Positions 1,495 to 57,718 of a DNA stretch of 63,351 bases are shown in pieces. How positions within the stretch are numbered: the first letter of the stretch is position 1; every line of letters starts with the position of its first letter. Origin of the DNA: an uncultured virus (IMG/VR IMGVR_UViG_2718217648_000002) (taxonomy: Duplodnaviria; Heunggongvirae; Uroviricota; Caudoviricetes); the IMG/VR virus record IMGVR_UViG_2718217648_000002, positions 62,001 to 125,351 of that record. One strand, given 5' to 3'. The notes under the pieces are model-generated. The model was not told the DNA's origin, searched no databases, and was given only the letters and a program-made list of their open reading frames with translations. The translations under genes and the position numbers were made by a program.

Positions 1495-2643
1495 ATGAAT
1501 CTTAAGCAGATGATTAAGAATGAATGTGAAAAAGACAACCAGCTCGCAGCGAAACTCTCAAAAATAGCAGGGTACAAAAAGGTTAATGGTTTTTACAAAT
1601 TCATCAACACCCCAGAGAAAGAAATGGACAACTTAGGCGGTTTAATTAATATTGTTAAAAGCTTGTTTCCTGATAATGAGGAGCAGCTTCTAAGTGATTA
1701 CTTCTTATCACTGGATCCCAACAAAAAATGTGCCAGACAATCTGTTGAATACTCAGATATTAATCAATGGGATACGTTAACAGACAAGATAGTGTCGAGG
1801 CTATCTAGCTCAAAAAACCTAGCAAGTCAAGAATGGGGCAATATATACAGTATACATAGAAGATTGAGCGAAAGTAAGATAAGTTTAACTGATGCAATAA
1901 GAGCAACCGGAAAGTGCAAAACAGATGAAATGTTATTTTTCTCAAATGCTATGCTGATGTATGAGTATTTGAAGGTAGGCGAATTTGGATTGATGAAAAG
2001 CACATTATCACTTCTCAATTTCAACGACTTACCCGAAGGCTTTGTGAAAGATTGCTATATGAATAGAATTTCATTATTAAATGCAAATATTTATTTAAAT
2101 GATAATGAAATTGAAAAATCTAGGTATTATTCAGAACAAGTTATTCAAAATTCAAATATAAATCGACTAAAAGTATTTGGGCATCTAACATATGGGAACA
2201 CATTAATTTTTGAAAGCTACTCTAAAGCCAAAGAGCAGTATCTTAAAGGATTGGAATTTGCTCGTGATAATGAACATCATAAATATAAGCTGCGATTAGC
2301 TCTTTGCTTTTTAAGCAACCTATGGAATAAGGATAATAAATGGCTTGACTTCGACACTGATAATATCCCTGATAAGATTGAGGTAGCATATTACTATACT
2401 AATAATAAGGAATTTAATAAAGCAGAGAAAGTAATAAATGAGCTTGAGAATATGGAATTGTACGAATATGATTCTGGGATTCTAGATTACATTAAGGGGA
2501 TTCTATACCAAAATAAGAATTATTTTTATGAAAGCACTGCAAAGTTGAAAAAATCTGGTGATAAATTATTTATCAATCTTCCATTAGCGGAGCTAAGGAA
2601 AATGGGCTGTGACGAAAAACTACTTGAATTAATCATGGTCTAA
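1495..2643 (+). CDS. aimR: Arbitrium receptor AimR (RRNPP, HTH + TPR)
   Basis: 382 aa, N-terminus NLKQMIKNECEKDNQLAAKLSKIAGY and CARQSVEY typical of AimR; immediately upstream of aimP. Confidence 0.95.
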   Translation: MNLKQMIKNECEKDNQLAAKLSKIAGYKKVNGFYKFINTPEKEMDNLGGLINIVKSLFPDNEEQLLSDYFLSLDPNKKCARQSVEYSDINQWDTLTDKIVSRLSSSKNLASQEWGNIYSIHRRLSESKISLTDAIRATGKCKTDEMLFFSNAMLMYEYLKVGEFGLMKSTLSLLNFNDLPEGFVKDCYMNRISLLNANIYLNDNEIEKSRYYSEQVIQNSNINRLKVFGHLTYGNTLIFESYSKAKEQYLKGLEFARDNEHHKYKLRLALCFLSNLWNKDNKWLDFDTDNIPDKIEVAYYYTNNKEFNKAEKVINELENMELYEYDSGILDYIKGILYQNKNYFYESTAKLKKSGDKLFINLPLAELRKMGCDEKLLELIMV

Positions 2644-2664: not shown

Positions 2665-2805
2665 ATGAAAAATATTATTCTTGGAATAGTAATCTTGTTA
2701 GCAATGGCTGTTGGATTTGTTGCCGGACAGCAATCAATTGAGACAGCATCGGTAGACCATGTAGACCAGCCTGTAAAAGTTGCATCACCAAGCCGCGGGG
2801 CTTAA
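2665..2805 (+). CDS. aimP: Arbitrium pre-pro-peptide AimP, mature peptide SPSRGA
   Basis: Translated by hand: MKNIILGIVILLAMAVGFVAGQQSIETASVDHVDQPVKVASPSRGA; signal peptide and C-terminal xxxRGA; RBS GGGGGTG. Confidence 0.95.
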   Translation: MKNIILGIVILLAMAVGFVAGQQSIETASVDHVDQPVKVASPSRGA

Positions 2806-23039: not shown

Positions 23040-23864
23040 TTGTTGAGGATTAAAAACAAAATAGAGGAATTGCTAAAAAAGACTAAAGGAGCAGAAAAGA
23101 GAGACTTTGGACGGTACACTCTAATCTGCACACTTCGCAAGGTTACGAAGCTATTAAAGTATATCACAGAAAAGAAGTCTTTTCCAGTATTGGTGACAGC
23201 ATTGGTTTCGTTCATGAATCCAATCAGTATCTTAGCAGCGGACAAGTATCGGAACTTTGAAGAGCTTAAAGCGAATGAATCACCGTTCAATTTTAGCGTG
23301 TTCTCAAAAGAGCAAGACACTGATGTATTAATTCTTGCTCCCCATGGAGGTGGCATAGAAGGGGGAACAAGCGAGCTTGCAAAGGAATTAAGCGAAACAT
23401 ACTCTACATATCTTTTTGAAGCTTTAAAGACACCAGGAGCCTTTGATTTGCATTTAACCAGTACGAATTTTGATGAACCACAAGCACTTGAAATGTTGAA
23501 GGGGCATGAGTTCACATTGTCACTTCACGGTTATGCAAGTAATGATCAACATGTTCTAGTTGGCGGCACAGACCGGGACAAAGCTGAAGCGATAACAAGT
23601 ACATTAAATAATGCCGGCTACTCTGCAGAGCTTCTAGATGAGGGTACGAGGCTATCCGGTAGCAGTCCAAATAACGTGGCCAATAAAAATAAAACAGGAA
23701 AGAGCATTCAACTGGAATTGAGCACTGGACTACGCAAATCAATGTTCAACACCTTTTCTCTGAAAGGACGCTCTGGTACAAGAAATGAGACTTTTTATAA
23801 CTTCATTGACACTCTATCAGGGTTTCTCAATGAAAATGTAGAAGGGAAGGGTTTGACAACATGA
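23040..23864 (+). CDS. yoqZ: Poly-gamma-glutamate hydrolase (PghP/YoqZ family)
   Basis: APHGGGIEGGTSE, LHLTSTNFDEP, SLHG, QLELS. Confidence 0.9.
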   Translation: MLRIKNKIEELLKKTKGAEKRDFGRYTLICTLRKVTKLLKYITEKKSFPVLVTALVSFMNPISILAADKYRNFEELKANESPFNFSVFSKEQDTDVLILAPHGGGIEGGTSELAKELSETYSTYLFEALKTPGAFDLHLTSTNFDEPQALEMLKGHEFTLSLHGYASNDQHVLVGGTDRDKAEAITSTLNNAGYSAELLDEGTRLSGSSPNNVANKNKTGKSIQLELSTGLRKSMFNTFSLKGRSGTRNETFYNFIDTLSGFLNENVEGKGLTT

Positions 23865-25603
23865 ACATGCAACAGCCCTTATACTATTTTGTTGATGCTC
23901 TGGATTGGGGAATTGATGATAAAGGGTCAAATGCAATTGAAACAACAGAAGGATTAAACCGAGCTTTAGAGTATGCATGCTCAAAATCATTCTATAAAGT
24001 ATATGTTCCAAAAGGTATCTACCTAATTGATGCAGTGAATACGTCAAAGCGGTTACCTGAATTCGGTGGAGGTATCAATGTTCCTTCGAATATTGAGCTA
24101 ATACTTCATCCAGAGGCTATATTTAAAGTGCAGCCAAATGATTATCAGGGTTACTCCTGTTTTTATATCGGCCAAGCAAGTAATGTTACGATTCGTGGCG
24201 GTCAAATTATTGGGGATCGACATGAGCATGATTATTCAAAAATTACCTCAATTAAGAAGACGCATGAATGGGGCTTTGGTATCCATGTTAATGGAAGTAG
24301 CAATGTGCTAATTGAAAATGTACAAGTTTCTGACTGTATTGGAGACAACATTTGGATAGCGGCTGATGGAATGATGAACACTTCAGGAACATATACGCCT
24401 TCAAAGAATGTAACCGTTCGAAAGTGTACGCTTTTAAGAGGAAGAAGAAATAATCTGGCTACCAATGGTTGTGAAGGTCTTCTTGTCGATGACTGTGATA
24501 TAGAGGAAGCTGGAGGAGATACAATTGGGCCACAATTAGGAATTGATTTAGAGGGCTTTGGAGAAAACGGAATTAAATACGATCACCCGTATAAATTAAC
24601 TGTGCGAAACTGCAGATTTAAAAACAATGGACGTGGATCTGTTACAGCTCACACAAGCGGCAAGGTAATTATTGAAGGAAACTACAGCGACCATGTTATT
24701 TCCTATGGATATAGCACGGATGTCAGTATCAAAAATAACAAGATCATCAATGAAAATGAAATTAAGACTTATGGAATTGACTCGGTAGGTGTTTCAAGTA
24801 CTGAGTCTGGAAACAGAGTTCAAATTGATGGCAATACGATTAGTGGCTTTGAAGTGGGCATTTGTGTAAGAGGAAAGGGTGGCACAGTATCAAATAATAC
24901 TTTTGAAAAAATAAAAGCATGCCCTATTGCAACACATCAAGCAGAGGACTTTTTAATTACGGACAACAGGATAGAAAACAGTGATTGTGTTCAAGTCCAG
25001 GTTAGAAACTCAAATGATATTAAGGTTGTGAATACCAAAGGAAAAGGAACGAGCTCGTCTTATGCTGCAAAGATAATGGACTCTACCCGAATCAGTCTCG
25101 TTAATAATGAGTTTGCTAATGTATATGGTGGAATTTATTGCGAAAGGTCTCAGTCAGTTCGTTTAAAGGGAAATGACTTGTTGTTAAGTGGGAGTGGATA
25201 CGGCATCTTTTGGGATAAAGACTCTTCTGTCTCACTGCATCGAAATGAAATTCATGAGCCTAGGAATGTTGCAATTAAAGGCACCCCTGAGAAATACAGT
25301 TGCCAGATTAGTGAGAATCAGGTTTATTTCTGTAAATCATTAATCGCCATCCAACTGACTGGTGGTTCAGAACATATATTAAAGGATAATGAGATCATGT
25401 TCAATCGTTCAGCAGACCAAGGATATGGTGTTTATTTGGAGAATACAAACAAGGTACGTCTCGTAAGAAACGATGTGCGCGGAATTGGTGGCAAGTTATT
25501 ATCCCACCCATATTGCACAGATAAAGCAAAGAATACAACCTTAATTTATAACACATATGACAGTGGAACACTGAAGACTGCAGAAGGAGATATTGTGGTC
25601 TAA
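23861..25603 (+). CDS. yorA: Right-handed beta-helix (pectin lyase-like) protein YorA
   Basis: VPKGIY start, repeated NVxIxN beta-helix rungs, GIDLE; synteny. Confidence 0.8.
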   Translation: MNMQQPLYYFVDALDWGIDDKGSNAIETTEGLNRALEYACSKSFYKVYVPKGIYLIDAVNTSKRLPEFGGGINVPSNIELILHPEAIFKVQPNDYQGYSCFYIGQASNVTIRGGQIIGDRHEHDYSKITSIKKTHEWGFGIHVNGSSNVLIENVQVSDCIGDNIWIAADGMMNTSGTYTPSKNVTVRKCTLLRGRRNNLATNGCEGLLVDDCDIEEAGGDTIGPQLGIDLEGFGENGIKYDHPYKLTVRNCRFKNNGRGSVTAHTSGKVIIEGNYSDHVISYGYSTDVSIKNNKIINENEIKTYGIDSVGVSSTESGNRVQIDGNTISGFEVGICVRGKGGTVSNNTFEKIKACPIATHQAEDFLITDNRIENSDCVQVQVRNSNDIKVVNTKGKGTSSSYAAKIMDSTRISLVNNEFANVYGGIYCERSQSVRLKGNDLLLSGSGYGIFWDKDSSVSLHRNEIHEPRNVAIKGTPEKYSCQISENQVYFCKSLIAIQLTGGSEHILKDNEIMFNRSADQGYGVYLENTNKVRLVRNDVRGIGGKLLSHPYCTDKAKNTTLIYNTYDSGTLKTAEGDIVV

Positions 25604-25641
25604 ATAAAACTGTAGTTTTAACAAGTTTAGGAGATGGATAT

Positions 25642-26019
25642 ATGGCCAATATTTTAACCAAAGAACAAGATGAAGCAATCCGGTATTTCAAGAACAAGCT
25701 GAACATATCTGAAAAACTGTACATATCCCTGATTAATTTTAATCTGCTTAGAGATAAACACGAAGACTTTGGTAATAGACTATATGAGCTTTATAAGACA
25801 GACCCTTATCTGTATATCAGAGCGCTTAAAGAAGGTTATGTGGTTGATCAGCCAATTGAATTTAATGAAGCAATTGTGCGGTTCTATGATGGTGAAGAAC
25901 TTGCTGTGATCCATAAGACTACTGGGAAGAGATACAATGTGAATGTTAAAATGAAAAAGCTTCCTGATGGGTTTACGCTGCAAACAATGAACATGTGGTC
26001 TTGGAGTGAGGTTATTTGA
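25642..26019 (+). CDS. Hypothetical phage protein (YorC-like)
   Basis: ORF with AGGAG RBS; synteny. Confidence 0.7.
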   Translation: MANILTKEQDEAIRYFKNKLNISEKLYISLINFNLLRDKHEDFGNRLYELYKTDPYLYIRALKEGYVVDQPIEFNEAIVRFYDGEELAVIHKTTGKRYNVNVKMKKLPDGFTLQTMNMWSWSEVI

Positions 26020-26040
26020 TTATTCAAACTCCTTTGTAAA

Positions 26041-26049
26041 TGGTATAAT
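26041..26049 (+). promoter_or_regulatory. Extended -10 sigmaA promoter for micro-ORF pair
   Basis: TG-G-TATAAT 26041-26049; weak -35 TATTCA at 26021. Confidence 0.65.
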
Positions 26050-26072
26050 TGAATTAATAAAGGAGTGGTATT

Positions 26073-26099
26073 ATGTCCATCAATTCTATTGGAGGCTGA
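26073..26099 (+). CDS. Micro-ORF MSINSIGG (candidate RRNPP-ligand mimic)
   Basis: RBS AAGGAG 26060-26065, ATG..TGA, after own promoter. Confidence 0.5.
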   Translation: MSINSIGG

Positions 26100-26102
26100 G
26101 TC

Positions 26103-26126
26103 ATGGGAGTTAGAGTGGGAGGCTAA
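26103..26126 (+). CDS. Micro-ORF MGVRVGG (candidate RRNPP-ligand mimic)
   Basis: GGAGG RBS formed by the Gly-Gly codons of the previous micro-ORF, 7 nt before ATG. Confidence 0.5.
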   Translation: MGVRVGG

Positions 26127-26141
26127 TAAGATAAACATTTT

Positions 26142-26169
26142 GAGTTGCTATTTAAGCGGCTCTTCTTTT
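26142..26169 (+). terminator. Terminator closing micro-ORF transcript
   Basis: GAGTTGCT-attta-AGCGGCTC-TTCTTTT. Confidence 0.7.
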
Positions 26170-26210
26170 ATGAGGTATTCTAAAAAATATCGTCGATAAA
26201 GGAGAAACTG

Positions 26211-26594
26211 ATGAATTTCTTAACAGCAAAAAACGAGTACGGTGAAACGGTTTACTTTAAAACTCTTAATAGAAGGCCTCGATTGGGTGATTTTGTGAAA
26301 CCAATCGATACACGACCTGTAGACATTGATGGCAATAGAATTAAAGAAAGTGGCAATAGCGCAAATAAATATGATGATCTAGATATCAACTCTTTTTATG
26401 AAGTATACAGGATATTTAATGTTAAGCATGTAATCATTAAAGATAAACTCGGTCATAAAGTTCAATTAGATTCAAGTCAATACCAATTAGCAAAGAAAAT
26501 CACTAAAGAGGAATATACGAATTTTAATGAAAAACTTCATTTATTAAAACATATTGATAACAACCTTAAAAGGATTAGCAACTTTTCCAGCTAA
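26211..26594 (+). CDS. Hypothetical phage protein
   Basis: ORF with AAGGAG RBS. Confidence 0.7.
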   Translation: MNFLTAKNEYGETVYFKTLNRRPRLGDFVKPIDTRPVDIDGNRIKESGNSANKYDDLDINSFYEVYRIFNVKHVIIKDKLGHKVQLDSSQYQLAKKITKEEYTNFNEKLHLLKHIDNNLKRISNFSS

Positions 26595-26650
26595 ATAAAA
26601 GCACTTTGTCGAGCTGCAGATAGTAGCTCAACTCTTTTTAAAACTTTTGA

Positions 26651-26699
26651 GAATAAAAATAAAATAGTTATTGACCGATCCGTTTTGGTGATGTAAGAT
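26651..26699 (+). promoter_or_regulatory. SPBRE-associated promoter of replication operon
   Basis: GAATAAAAATAAAAT 26651; TTGACC 26671, 17 bp, TAAGAT 26694. Confidence 0.75.
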
Positions 26700-26732
26700 T
26701 AAGTTATCCCAAAGAGAGAAAGGAGGAAAGAG

Positions 26733-27107
26733 ATGAAAAAGGAATTAAAGATACTGAAAGTATCTGTCGAAGCCTTACATACCTACAAAAATGATGTCAA
26801 AAGGAATTACGACATTGACGAAGACCAAGCAAGAAGAAAGTTAACCAGGAATGTGATGTTGGTAAAGGAATTTAAACCAAGAGGAATTAAAAGAGGTCTT
26901 TTTTCTAAAACATACTCATATGGAAACTTAAAGATCACAATTCGACATGGAACAGTAATAAGGATTGAAAATGTAAAAGGTGATCCTGAACCTTGGGACT
27001 TTCCAAAAAAGAGATACATAGAATTAAACAAGCTACTTGGTATCAAGGATTGTAAGTTTAGTAGCAAGTCTCATTATAGGCATTTTAAGAATAAAAATAA
27101 AATATAA
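26733..27107 (+). CDS. Hypothetical protein (YorE-like)
   Basis: First ORF of replication operon, AGGAGG RBS. Confidence 0.75.
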   Translation: MKKELKILKVSVEALHTYKNDVKRNYDIDEDQARRKLTRNVMLVKEFKPRGIKRGLFSKTYSYGNLKITIRHGTVIRIENVKGDPEPWDFPKKRYIELNKLLGIKDCKFSSKSHYRHFKNKNKI

Positions 27108-27126
27108 TATTAACGGAGGCGTTATA

Positions 27127-28368
27127 TTGAGCAAACTTTATAATACATTTGAATTTATCGGTAACCTATTTATTTCAAACAATAAAGAGAAATTCCATGA
27201 AATTAAGGAATATGACAGCGGATGGGTTAAGGAAAGATTAAGCTTCGCAGTTCAAGAGTCAAAAACAAACAGTGTTTTTGTTGAGATTGAAGGTGGTTAC
27301 TCAAAAAGCAAACAAAATAAAGTGTTTTCATTCAGCAAGGGTACAGAAAATGAAAAAGGATCAAGACTCGAAATTCCATGGGAAGATCGGTTGAAAGAAG
27401 AAACAGTAAACATGGTTGCTGATTTTTCTAAGATCCTAATTAACTTAAACGATGAGTCAACAAAAACCAAATTAAATGAATTGAAGTTTAAAATTAGAGG
27501 GTTGGAAATGAAAGACTCTCTTACTGAAGAAGAAAATAAAACTTTATCTACTCTCAAGGGAGAATATAAACAATTAAACATAAACGGTGCAGAATTCATT
27601 CATGAATACGATGCTATTCAGTACTTATCCCAAAATCTCGAAAAGCATAAAGACAATAAATTTAAAATTACAGGTAATATTGAATACAATTCATGGAATG
27701 GACGGAATTTTAGAAAGTTCAAAATCAAAACCATTGAAATTGTAAGTAGTGATACACCATCTCAACTAAGAGCCACAATGGATGTATTTTTCACAAGTGA
27801 ATCTTTAGATGAATCGTCATTTGAAGAAGAAAAAAGGTACTTTGTTGATGCATATGTGCTTAGCTATGATAATCAGGCAAAAAAAGATCGATTTTTTCCT
27901 CAGCAATTAGTCATTAATGCACAAAAATTGGACTTTGAAAATGATTTACATATGAAACGATTAAATCTCTTGAAAAACTTCTTTAAAGTTGAAAATGATG
28001 AAGTATATCACCTTCAATGGGTTGTGAATATTTTCAGGGGTGCTGATGAGATTGAGTTTACCGAAGAGGAACTCACGGAAAGTCAAAAGGAAATGATTGC
28101 TTTAGGTTTAAACACACTAGATGACTTTAAACCTAAAGGAGGGCTATTGGGCGAAAATCGTGAAGAAAATAGACTTTTAAAACCTATTTTAAAAAAGATT
28201 AATGATTCTAATGATTTTACAGAAGGTGCTGCAACATCTACATATGAAATTGAAGATCTTACATATATTCCACAACAGATTCAAAATTCTACACCACCCG
28301 TAGAAAAAGAAGAACCTAAAGTGACTGAAGAAGAAAAAGATAATGCATTTGATGATTTATTTGCTTGA
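27127..28368 (+). CDS. Replication-module protein (YorF position; acidic tail, possibly SSB-like)
   Basis: TTG start after GGAGG; ends DNAFDDLFA. Confidence 0.7.
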   Translation: MSKLYNTFEFIGNLFISNNKEKFHEIKEYDSGWVKERLSFAVQESKTNSVFVEIEGGYSKSKQNKVFSFSKGTENEKGSRLEIPWEDRLKEETVNMVADFSKILINLNDESTKTKLNELKFKIRGLEMKDSLTEEENKTLSTLKGEYKQLNINGAEFIHEYDAIQYLSQNLEKHKDNKFKITGNIEYNSWNGRNFRKFKIKTIEIVSSDTPSQLRATMDVFFTSESLDESSFEEEKRYFVDAYVLSYDNQAKKDRFFPQQLVINAQKLDFENDLHMKRLNLLKNFFKVENDEVYHLQWVVNIFRGADEIEFTEEELTESQKEMIALGLNTLDDFKPKGGLLGENREENRLLKPILKKINDSNDFTEGAATSTYEIEDLTYIPQQIQNSTPPVEKEEPKVTEEEKDNAFDDLFA

Positions 28369-57314: not shown

Positions 57315-57353
57315 ATGCCAGTAGTACTTTATGGATTTGGAAGAGGAGCATAA
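57315..57353 (+). CDS. Micro-ORF MPVVLYGFGRGA ending in arbitrium-type hexapeptide GFGRGA
   Basis: Perfect RBS AAGGAGGTG 57300-57308; ATG..GGA TTT GGA AGA GGA GCA TAA. Confidence 0.7.
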   Translation: MPVVLYGFGRGA

Positions 57354-57694: not shown

Positions 57695-57718
57695 ATGTCA
57701 ATTGGTCATGGAGCATGA
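57695..57718 (+). CDS. Micro-ORF MSIGHGA (arbitrium-type hexapeptide SIGHGA after Met removal)
   Basis: RBS GAGGGG 57683-57688; ATG TCA ATT GGT CAT GGA GCA TGA. Confidence 0.65.
   Translation: MSIGHGA

What the first reader, a model, noticed from the sequence alone, without database searches (positions are those of the whole stretch)
26021..26169. Stand-alone transcript of about 110 nt with two tandem Gly-Gly-terminated micro-peptides (MSINSIGG, MGVRVGG)
Seen: extended -10 promoter (TGGTATAAT), RBS AAGGAG, ORF1 MSINSIGG, whose GGA GGC codons are the RBS of ORF2 MGVRVGG, then an intrinsic terminator. No SPBRE-like operator lies nearby, so it may be expressed in the lysogen. After Met removal the products would be SINSIGG and GVRVGG. 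Established (from memory): short Gly-ending peptides are ligands of RRNPP receptors, for example other arbitrium peptides ending in GG or VGA and PhrI DRVGA of ICEBs1. Inference: a compact, expandable array of cytoplasmic mimics targeting AimR or Rap receptors of other mobile elements, belonging to the same system as the 57.3-57.7 kb micro-ORFs.
Basis: partly seen in the sequence, partly recalled or inferred. Interest (0 to 1): 0.85.

Follow-up and report, generated by a model that had tools for sequence, protein, structure and literature searches.

The report
Phage cassette of tiny Gly-Gly peptide genes
SPbeta-family Bacillus phages carry a conserved, never-annotated mini-cassette with two or three 5-8-codon genes for peptides ending in Gly-Gly, probably made directly inside the cell, whose target is still unknown.

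Summary
Window 26041-26169 holds TGGTATAAT, an RBS, MSINSIGG (26073-26099), MGVRVGG (26103-26126) and a hairpin with a T-run.

It is not chance. The same cassette follows yorC in 20 of 24 Spbetavirus GenBank records (phi3T, Goe11-14, SPbetaL2-8). There it has three units: MVFGG, (GTG)INIIGG and M[G/E]VRVGG. No record annotates it.

In 21 unique phi3T-type copies the two conserved ORFs vary at 4 of 48 columns, against 62 of 111 in the flanks (p=6e-9). Seven of 10 variable ORF sites are synonymous (p=0.004). The two lineages supply in-frame starts from unrelated 5' sequence. The body has no stable fold.

Best reading (about 0.45): a stand-alone gene for leaderless micro-peptides. Transcript ends and translation are not shown.

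The "RRNPP-mimic" function is plausible but untested. Real signals do end in GG (EIKPGG, DPGRGG, KPGIGG, SHP DIIIIVGG), and PhrI ADRVGA resembles GVRVGG. None of these peptides is in the one AimP catalogue I could search, and no receptor gene is adjacent.

Supporting context: leaderless micro-ORFs beside sspC end in exact foreign arbitrium signals (GFGRGA here, SASRGA in SPbeta).

Rivals: a G-rich sRNA, a translated leader/attenuator, a minigene effect.

The parts
25642..26019 (+). yorC-like gene (125 aa). The cassette always follows its stop codon.
   Evidence: PHROG 20815, unknown function.
26041..26049 (+). Extended -10 promoter box TGGTATAAT. The -35 is weak (TATTCA, 26021-26026, 3 of 6).
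   Evidence: TGnTATAAT is kept in both lineages. Not listed by the consensus scan. Promoter activity is inferred.
26059..26065 (+). Shine-Dalgarno AAAGGAG, 7 nt upstream of the ORF1 start.
26073..26099 (+). Micro-ORF 1, MSINSIGG, stop TGA. Homologous to (GTG)INIIGG of phi3T-type phages.
   Evidence: The in-frame start is supplied by non-homologous 5' sequence in the two lineages.
26091..26095 (+). GGAGG. It forms the Gly-Gly codons of ORF1 and is also the Shine-Dalgarno of ORF2, 7 nt before its ATG.
   Evidence: It varies GGAGG/GGGGG in relatives, which is synonymous.
26103..26126 (+). Micro-ORF 2, MGVRVGG, stop TAA (then TAA). M[G/E]VRVGG in relatives.
   Evidence: 3 of 24 columns vary among 21 phi3T-type copies.
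26118..26122 (+). Terminal GGAGG with no start codon behind it. Invariant in all 23 unique copies.
   Evidence: It is explained by the Gly-Gly codons or by an RNA-level role, not by translational coupling.
26142..26169 (+). Hairpin (26142-26162) plus T-run TTCTTTT: an intrinsic-terminator-like end.
   Evidence: The hairpin is kept in 21 aligned copies through one-sided changes. The T-run is poor in phi3T-type copies.
26211..26594 (+). Downstream 127-aa gene of unknown function (context). It starts 42 nt after the T-run with no promoter-like site between, and is followed by its own terminator at 26611-26629.
   Evidence: No Pfam or PHROG match. Linked to the cassette only in window-type loci.
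26650..26666 (+). Nearest exact copy of the SPBRE-like repeat (context), in front of the yorE-like promoter.
   Evidence: The yorE promoter is an MrpR/SPBRE site in SPbeta (PMC10516654, passages).

Best explanation
This is a self-contained, unannotated gene cassette of SPbeta-family phages. It sits in the variable cargo slot between yorC and the repressor-controlled yorE promoter.

Proposed mechanism:
- An extended -10 promoter drives a short, unstructured mRNA.
- Ribosomes load at a strong RBS and translate ORF1.
- ORF1's last two codons (GGA GGN) form the RBS of ORF2, so ribosomes pass to ORF2 by translational coupling.
- A hairpin ends the unit.

The products are leaderless micro-peptides made directly in the cytoplasm. 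By the N-terminal methionine excision rule these would be SINSIGG and GVRVGG here, and Met-INIIGG and Met-EVRVGG or GVRVGG in phi3T-type phages.

What is shown: conservation, selection on the ORFs, and initiation signals. What is inferred: transcription limits, translation and the peptides themselves.

The most likely role is as small intracellular ligands. The best candidate targets are peptide-binding RRNPP-type receptors (AimR, Rap or Rgg-like) of rival mobile elements or of the host. I put that last step at about 0.2 on its own. The target is unknown.
For: Distribution.
- The phi3T-type cassette is in 20 of the 24 Spbetavirus records that hold yorC.
- It is in 17 of 25 phi3T-type yorC loci of IMG/VR.
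- The window-type is in 4 of 25 window-type yorC loci.
- One hit in 185,579 species genomes: Bacillus rugosus.
- No decayed copy was seen among the 50 yorC loci read by eye.

Constraint falls on the ORFs.
- ORF2 plus ORF3 vary at 4 of 48 columns. Leader, post-stop spacer and downstream sequence vary at 62 of 111. Fisher p=6e-9.
- Between window-type and phi3T-type only the ORF core aligns. The flanks do not.

The variation looks like coding sequence.
- 7 synonymous against 3 non-synonymous sites, with 0.26 expected synonymous (binomial p=0.004).
- By codon position the variable sites fall 1/2/7 (p=0.02).
- Stop codons change TAA to TGA in frame.

Initiation signals are kept.
- The two lineages provide the in-frame start of the INxIGG ORF from unrelated sequence: ATG-TCC here, GTG in phi3T.
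- Each start has GGAGG or AGGAG 7-10 nt upstream.

It does not behave like a structured RNA.
- Fold z-scores are -0.02 and +0.24. Only the terminal hairpin is stable.

It does not depend on the next gene.
- Three different downstream contexts occur (5, 8 and 17 of 30 loci). In the largest group the next gene, yorE-like, starts about 190 nt on.

Precedents.
- The 8-aa SIP peptide is made from a 24-bp ORF and binds RopB (PMC10518010, passages).
- Met-tagged SHP peptides expressed inside cells activate Rgg2/3, and changing the last Gly abolishes activity (PMC13692066, passages).

Context.
- The same phages carry leaderless micro-ORFs that end in exact foreign arbitrium signals.
Against: - There is no direct evidence of a transcription start, a 3' end or translation. 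RNA-library contigs from three studies cover the region only as parts of 0.9-28 kb contigs. The one raw Ribo-seq run had no reads of the phage.
- The counts are small. The variable sites are not phylogenetically independent.
- The first Gly codon of the last unit is GGA in all 23 unique copies, so a nucleotide-level constraint on GGAGG cannot be excluded.
- Unit 1 of phi3T-type copies keeps its G-rich motif while losing its frame or its start codon (16 of 21). This shows that part of the conservation is at RNA/RBS level.
- The peptides match no entry of the clade-2 AimP table.
- The phage's own signals are different: AimP SPSRGA, and a Phr ending AERAET.
- No receptor gene lies next to the cassette.
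- In window-type loci the cassette is also the 5' leader of the 127-aa gene.
Confidence: 0.45

Rival explanations
1. A non-coding small RNA. The repeated single-stranded G-rich motifs (UUGGRGGNU) are the active part. They could sponge C-rich or pyrimidine-rich RNAs or a GGA-binding protein, or titrate 30S subunits. On this view the ORFs are incidental.
For: - Three motifs of the form GGRGG+N+stop occur per phi3T-type copy.
- The last one has no start codon behind it, yet it is invariant.
- Unit 1 keeps its motif in 21 of 21 copies although its ORF is lost or shifted in 16.
- The body is unstructured, so the motifs would be accessible.
Against: - This view does not predict the excess of third-position and synonymous changes.
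- It does not predict the in-frame starts supplied from unrelated sequence in the two lineages, nor the optimal RBS-start spacings.
- It does not predict the conservation of the non-G-rich codons (ATT AAT ... ATT, GTT AGA GTN).
- There is no Rfam family at gathering score.
- Predicted pairing with the host C-rich sRNA RoxS is no better than for shuffled sequences: 0.15 to 0.93 of shuffles do as well in 4 variants.
- The covariation term is only -0.35 kcal/mol.
Confidence: 0.2
2. A translated 5' leader acting as a ribosome-dependent attenuator. Translation or stalling on the Gly-Gly-stop micro-ORFs, which end 10-16 nt before the hairpin, would set how much transcription reads through into the downstream gene. 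The peptides themselves would have no role.
For: - In window-type loci the 127-aa gene starts 42 nt after the T-run, with no promoter-like site between.
- The promoter aligns with the one SPbeta uses for yorD at the same place.
- A ribosome terminating on the last micro-ORF would reach the foot of the hairpin in phi3T-type copies. This is read from the sequence.
Against: - In 17 of 30 loci the cassette is the only cargo, and the next gene (yorE-like) starts about 190 nt on. In 8 others the next gene starts about 120 nt on. In phi3T a TGGTAATAT box lies in that spacer.
- No conserved alternative (antiterminator) pairing was found.
- The peptide sequences are conserved beyond the Gly codons.
- The weak preQ1-II riboswitch match over 26127-26213 (25.4 bits against 47) breaks two of its three helices.
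Confidence: 0.15
3. A minigene acting through translation itself. Very short ORFs with strong RBSs would release peptidyl-tRNA (here tRNA-Gly) or tie up ribosomes, as lambda bar minigenes do in hosts short of peptidyl-tRNA hydrolase. The bar example is recalled, not checked.
For: Strong RBSs, 5-8 codons, and a Gly codon always last before the stop.
Against: - Bar effects are known only in hydrolase-defective hosts (recalled).
- This view does not explain conservation of the internal codons, or the G/E polymorphism being the only non-synonymous change in ORF3.
- It was not testable here.
Confidence: 0.05
4. No function. RBS-like debris and chance ORFs left behind by gene turnover in a recombination-prone cargo slot.
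For: - The slot is highly variable. 21 of 25 window-type and 8 of 25 phi3T-type yorC loci carry other cargo.
- GG-stop micro-ORFs can arise simply from an RBS. One example is MTLPPIFYGG, at G000 2716-2748 on the minus strand.
Against: - The core is kept at 44 of 48 invariant columns while its flanks vary at 62 of 111.
- It persists across lineages whose yorC is only 76-79% identical.
Confidence: 0.05

Closest known systems
Leaderless communication peptides (LCP; SIP/RopB of Streptococcus pyogenes and relatives), PMC10518010
   Same: An ultrasmall ORF with its own RBS encodes the mature 7-10-aa peptide directly. There is no signal peptide and no processing site. The peptides are rich in aliphatic residues (INIIGG, VFGG).
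   Different: - LCP genes sit next to their RopB-clan receptor gene. No receptor gene is adjacent here.
- LCPs are 8-10 aa and strongly hydrophobic or aromatic and do not end in GG. Here there is a tandem, translationally coupled array on a phage.
- Export and re-import are unknown here.
Arbitrium AimP peptides, including the GG-ended ones (EIKPGG/TIKPGG of Wbeta/J5a phages, PMC8878798; DPGRGG and KPGIGG, Table S2 of PMC13220667)
   Same: Short peptides with Gly at the fifth position and G/A at the last. GVRVGG would be a hexapeptide of that form. KPGIGG shares IGG with SINSIGG and INIIGG. The host clade and phage family are the same.
   Different: - AimP is a 35-50-aa secreted pro-peptide encoded right after aimR.
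- This phage's own AimP (window 2665-2805, ending SPSRGA) lies 23 kb away.
- None of these peptides occurs in the clade-2 table.
SHP pheromones of Rgg regulators (precursors end in DILIIVGG / DIIIIVGG; PMC3257209 listing, PMC13692066)
   Same: Ile/Val-rich peptides ending in Gly-Gly. The last Gly is essential. Met-tagged versions act when made inside the cell.
   Different: SHPs are cut from 22-23-aa precursors, start with Asp or Glu, are encoded next to rgg, and are known from streptococci, not Bacillus phages.
PhrI of ICEBs1 (DRVGA / ADRVGA inhibit RapI; PMC3601965)
   Same: GVRVGG and ADRVGA share R-V-G at positions 3-5 and have small residues at both ends.
   Different: - The residue before Arg is Val, not Asp, and the last is Gly, not Ala.
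- PhrI is a secreted, processed pro-peptide encoded after rapI.
- Binding was not tested.
Leaderless arbitrium-type micro-ORFs beside sspC in the same phages
   Same: RBS-led ORFs of 7-12 codons without a signal peptide, unannotated, in SPbeta-family phages.
   Different: - Those end in exact known signals of other phages: GFGRGA and SASRGA, and SIGHGA close to GFGHGA.
- They are single rather than tandem.
- The GG peptides match no known signal.

Membership tests
Arbitrium AimP | Encoded immediately downstream of aimR | tested here: not met
   AimR (Pfam PF22871, E 8e-83) is at window 1495-2640, with its AimP at 2665-2805. The cassette is 23 kb away, between yorC and an unknown gene.
Arbitrium AimP | Pro-peptide with N-terminal signal peptide | tested here: not met
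   The ORFs have 8 and 7 codons.
Arbitrium AimP | Mature C-terminal hexapeptide with Gly at position 5 and Gly or Ala at position 6 | tested here: inconclusive
   GVRVGG fits the form. SINSIGG is 7 residues. RVGG, IIGG, SIGG and VFGG each have 0 occurrences in the AimP tables of PMC13220667. The all-clade catalogue of Stokar-Avihail 2019 is not held.
Arbitrium AimP | Binds an AimR and releases it from DNA | not testable with these tools
   The complex predictor needs chains of 30 residues or more.
Leaderless communication peptide (LCP) | Ultrasmall ORF encoding the mature peptide without secretion or processing sequences | tested here: met
   24-27-bp ORFs with a strong RBS at 7 nt. Definition from PMC10518010.
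Leaderless communication peptide (LCP) | Adjacent RopB-clan (RRNPPA) receptor gene | tested here: not met
   The five ORFs from 23861 to 28365 have no TPR or HTH receptor domain.
Leaderless communication peptide (LCP) | 8-10 aa, highly hydrophobic (aliphatic/aromatic) | tested here: inconclusive
   The peptides are 5-8 aa. INIIGG and VFGG are hydrophobic. GVRVGG carries Arg, and all end in GG.
SHP/Rgg pheromone | Precursor of about 22 aa next to an rgg gene; mature peptide starts with Asp or Glu | tested here: not met
   There is no precursor part and no rgg-like neighbour. Only the Ile/Val-rich ...GG end is shared.
Ribosome-dependent leader-peptide attenuator | Short ORF, then terminator, then regulated gene, with an alternative antiterminator fold | tested here: inconclusive
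   The ORF-terminator-gene order is met in window-type loci. It is not met in the 17 of 30 loci where the cassette stands alone. No conserved alternative fold was found.
Known RNA families (Rfam 15) | Match at the gathering score | tested here: not met
   0 matches in the whole window. The best sub-threshold match is preQ1-II at 25.4 of 47 bits, with two helices broken.

The most novel reading that the evidence does not exclude
SPbeta-family phages run a signal-forging system of leaderless micro-genes. This cassette would supply GG-ended peptides made directly in the cytoplasm. They would occupy peptide receptors (AimR-, Rap- or Rgg-type) of rival phages, of ICEs such as ICEBs1, or of the host. 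That would override the rivals' quorum decisions without any secretion. The single micro-genes beside sspC, which end in exact foreign arbitrium signals (GFGRGA, SASRGA), would be part of the same system. The tandem, RBS-in-codon design would let units be added or lost quickly.
Probability: 0.17. Interest if true: 0.85.

Novelty: new variant of a known kind. Interest (0 to 1): 0.6.

Why it matters
If the peptides are made, these would be among the smallest phage genes under selection, and all current annotations of a model phage family miss them. Arbitrium research now centres on cross-talk between phages (PMC13220667; bioRxiv 10.1101/2025.10.13.681967). Cytoplasmic, secretion-free peptides would add a private route of interference that assays of conditioned medium cannot see. 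The test is simple in phi3T or Goe11 with Bacillus subtilis 168 derivatives. Even if the function turns out to be cis-regulatory or RNA-based, the cassette is a clean case for telling peptide-level from RNA-level selection on 7-codon ORFs.

Tried and rejected
- Rfam at gathering score: nothing in the window.
- Weak preQ1-II hit over 26127-26213: rejected. Only the first hairpin and the RBS align, and helices 2 and 3 are broken.
- Structured sRNA: fold z-scores are about 0. RNAalifold supports only the terminal hairpin.
- RoxS sponge: RoxS was taken from the Bacillus rugosus genome. Duplex energies are no better than for shuffled sequences. This is a crude test, made with duplexfold on whole RNAs.
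- Decayed longer gene: the 44-aa overlapping frame found no longer homologue (weak evidence by the tool's own note).
- Expression: RNA-run contigs X1, X5 and X13 cover the phi3T-type locus only within long contigs. The raw Ribo-seq run X24 had no phage reads. So there was no test of a separate transcript or of translation.
- Relatives of the virus record cannot be drawn.
- Literature: no paper in the held library pairs arbitrium with these peptide endings or with leaderless or small ORFs. A gene-name search returned only noise. The phi3T lysogen paper PMC12361552 has no transcriptome terms.
- MTLPPIFYGG (G000 2716-2748, minus strand) is not a third member. Its GGAGG is simply the RBS of the next gene.
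- Complex prediction was not run, because the peptides are below its 30-residue floor.

Full report
**What is there.**
- The window is the right part of a 125-kb SPbeta-like provirus.
  - TGGTATAAT at 26041-26049.
  - AAAGGAG at 26059-26065.
  - ATG at 26073 opening MSINSIGG, with stop TGA at 26097-26099.
  - ATG at 26103 opening MGVRVGG, with stop TAA at 26124-26126 and a second TAA.
  - A hairpin at 26142-26162, followed by TTCTTTT.
- Both starts lie 7 nt behind a strong RBS. The RBS of ORF2 is the GGA GGC of ORF1.
- The hairpin is listed as terminator-like.
- The promoter is not listed by that scan, because its -35 matches only 3 of 6. It is an extended -10 type.
- These are the only two RBS-led ORFs of 4-12 codons ending in GG in the window.
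- In the whole provirus 4 of 269 RBS-led micro-ORFs end in GG, against 0.42 expected.

**Relatives.**
- BLAST of the window stretch against 50,697 phage records finds only the yorC end in 24 Spbetavirus records.
- Reading phi3T behind yorC showed the same design with three units:
  - ATG GTT TTT GGA GGT TAA.
  - GTG ATT AAT ATT ATT GGA GGA TGA.
  - ATG GAA GTT AGA GTC GGA GGC TGA.
  - Then a hairpin.
- BLAST with that 170-nt piece finds it at 85-100% identity in 20 Bacillus phage records: phi3T and its hybrids, Goe11-14, BUCT082/083 and SPbetaL2-L8. The 3 other hits are 25-27-nt chance matches.
- SPbeta itself (two records), SPbetaL1 and SPR lack it. SPbeta has yorD directly behind a homologous promoter.
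- No record annotates anything in the cassette.
- In IMG/VR, searches seeded on yorC do not depend on the cassette's own sequence. They give 4 of 25 window-type loci and 17 of 25 phi3T-type loci with the cassette.
- All the other loci carry unrelated cargo. I saw no decayed copy.
- Pattern scans added a few more copies and one genome hit, Bacillus rugosus SPB7. Those scans fix the Gly codons and stops, so I did not use them for the counts below.

**Coding or not.** Taken over the BLAST- and yorC-derived loci, there are 23 unique copies, 21 phi3T-type and 2 window-type.
- Both conserved ORFs are intact in all 23.
- Within the phi3T type the variable columns are as follows.

| Region | Variable columns |
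|---|---|
| INIIGG ORF | 1 of 24 |
| M[G/E]VRVGG ORF | 3 of 24 |
| Leader | 33 of 57 |
| Post-stop spacer | 6 of 9 |
| Downstream | 23 of 45 |
| Two ORFs together | 4 of 48 |
| Flanks together | 62 of 111 (Fisher p=6e-9) |

- Between the two lineages only the ORF core aligns.
- Over both lineages the ORFs show 7 synonymous sites: ATC/ATT, TCC/TCA, GGA/GGG, GGC/GGA, GTT/GTA, GTG/GTC and GGC/GGT.
- They show 3 non-synonymous sites: TCT/ATT, which counts twice, and GGA/GAA.
- The expected synonymous share is 0.26 (p=0.004). Sites by codon position fall 1/2/7 (p=0.02).
- Stops change TAA/TGA in frame.
- The start of the INxIGG ORF comes from unrelated sequence in the two lineages: ATG-TCC here, GTG in phi3T. 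Each has an RBS at 7-8 nt.
- The RNA body has no fold beyond chance (z -0.02 and +0.24).
- RNAalifold keeps only the terminal hairpin, through one-sided changes.

Together this favours translation and selection on the peptide sequence. These limits apply:
- The numbers are small and the sites are not independent.
- Unit 1 of the phi3T type is a GG peptide in only 5 of 21 copies. It is frameshifted to MVLGVKK-like in 12 and has no ATG in 4. Its GGRGG, which is the RBS of unit 2, is always kept.
- The last GGAGG has no ORF behind it. Its first Gly codon never varies. An RNA-level role for it cannot be excluded.

**Transcription unit.**
- The TGnTATAAT box is kept in both lineages.
- The repeat AGAATAAAAATAAAATA is shared by the aimR and yorE-like promoters. 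It occurs 31 times in the window, all on the + strand, against 3.8 expected. None lies between 23697 and 26649.
- In SPbeta the aimR and yorE promoters are MrpR/SPBRE sites (PMC10516654, passages).
- So the cassette lies outside the nearest repressor-bound promoter and could be expressed in lysogens. That is an inference.
- Downstream contexts differ:
  - the 127-aa gene in 5 of 30 loci;
  - a 208/219-aa gene in 8;
  - yorE-like directly in 17.
- So the cassette is not just the leader of one gene. In window-type loci, however, the 127-aa gene has no promoter of its own and must be read through the hairpin.
- Public RNA libraries from three studies contain the phi3T-type locus, but only within long contigs. 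The raw Ribo-seq run lacked the phage. Expression limits therefore remain unshown.

**Function.**
- The phage's own receptors are AimR (signal SPSRGA) and, at the left end of the record, a Rap with a Phr ending AERAET. The micro-peptides resemble neither.
- GG-ended peptide signals are real:
  - EIKPGG and TIKPGG (PMC8878798, passages).
  - DPGRGG and KPGIGG (Table S2 of PMC13220667).
  - SHP precursors ending in DILIIVGG and DIIIIVGG (listing).
- PhrI ADRVGA/DRVGA inhibits RapI (PMC3601965, passages) and shares R-V-G with GVRVGG.
- Peptides translated directly can work:
  - SIP is made from a 24-bp ORF (PMC10518010, passages).
  - Met-tagged SHPs made inside cells switch Rgg2/3 (PMC13692066, passages).
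- However, RVGG, IIGG, SIGG and VFGG are absent from the clade-2 AimP tables.
- The near-invariance of the peptides across phages with different AimPs argues for a common target rather than a cognate one.

**Context beside sspC.**
- The window has RBS-led MPVVLYGFGRGA (57315-57353) and MSIGHGA (57695-57718).
- SPbeta and Goe11 have MVQTLHSASRGA.
- SPbetaL1 has both MVQTLHSASRGA and MPLVLYGFGRGA.
- Goe11 and BUCT082 have MSIGHGA.
- phi3T has the first ORF broken by a 1-nt deletion.
- GFGRGA and SASRGA are real AimPs of other phages, and GFGHGA is one too.
- Two earlier notes of this scan report similar leaderless arbitrium-type micro-ORFs in other SPbeta-like genomes. I treat them as leads only.
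- This raises the prior that the family uses leaderless peptides. It does not show what the GG peptides bind.

**Verdict.**
- The cassette is a real, conserved and unannotated element.
- The best reading is a stand-alone operon of leaderless Gly-Gly micro-peptides (about 0.45). The receptor-mimic function stands at about 0.17-0.2.
- Rivals are a G-rich sRNA (0.2), a translated attenuator (0.15), a minigene effect (0.05) and no function (0.05).
- It works most like leaderless communication peptides, but it fails their defining receptor adjacency. It is not an AimP, SHP or Phr gene.
- Not seen, and possibly relevant:
  - the all-clade arbitrium catalogue (PMC6986904, not held);
  - bioRxiv supplements (closed);
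  - Rap-Phr catalogues.

Noticed in passing
window 57315-57353 (+); L124 ~417; L117 ~486; L118 ~342: RBS-led 12-codon ORF MPVVLYGFGRGA, just before the sspC terminator. It ends in GFGRGA, a real arbitrium signal of other phages, while this phage's own signal is SPSRGA. SPbetaL1 has MPLVLYGFGRGA. phi3T has the ORF frameshifted by a 1-nt deletion. SPbeta, Goe11 and SPbetaL1 carry a different one, MVQTLHSASRGA, ending in the real signal SASRGA. None is annotated.
   Followed up: partly
window 57695-57718 (+); L123 ~798; L126 ~724: RBS-led 7-codon ORF MSIGHGA on the other side of sspC, also present in Goe11 and BUCT082. After Met removal it would be SIGHGA, close to the real AimP GFGHGA of the B. 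pumilus group.
   Followed up: partly
window, 31 sites, e.g. 1402, 8641, 26650, 27088, 39722, 45872, 55063, 55153: The 17-nt repeat AGAATAAAAATAAAATA occurs 31 times with up to 3 mismatches, all on the + strand, against 3.8 expected. It sits upstream of the aimR and yorE-like promoters. It is probably this phage's SPBRE-type repressor operator.
   Followed up: partly
G000 1-1277 (outside the window; L119): A Rap receptor (386 aa, with RapH_N and TPR domains) and a 39-aa Phr pro-peptide (ending AERAET) lie at the very left end of the provirus record.
   Followed up: partly
G000 2716-2790, minus strand (L119): Behind the amidase gene, an RBS (AGGAGGT) faces a complementary ACCTCCT inside a 10-codon upstream ORF (MTLPPIFYGG). 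That ORF's GGAGG is the RBS of the next gene. It may be an RBS-sequestering or coupling device.
   Followed up: no
L047 1-194 (SPbetaL2), about 1 kb upstream of yorC: Gad1, annotated in the record as the anti-Gabija protein, lies just upstream of the yorB/yorC/cassette region. The cassette therefore sits in a neighbourhood that holds counter-defence cargo.
   Followed up: no
window 26127-26213 (+): Sub-threshold Rfam match to the preQ1-II riboswitch (25.4 bits against a gathering score of 47). Only the first hairpin and the RBS align, so it is judged a chance match.
   Followed up: yes
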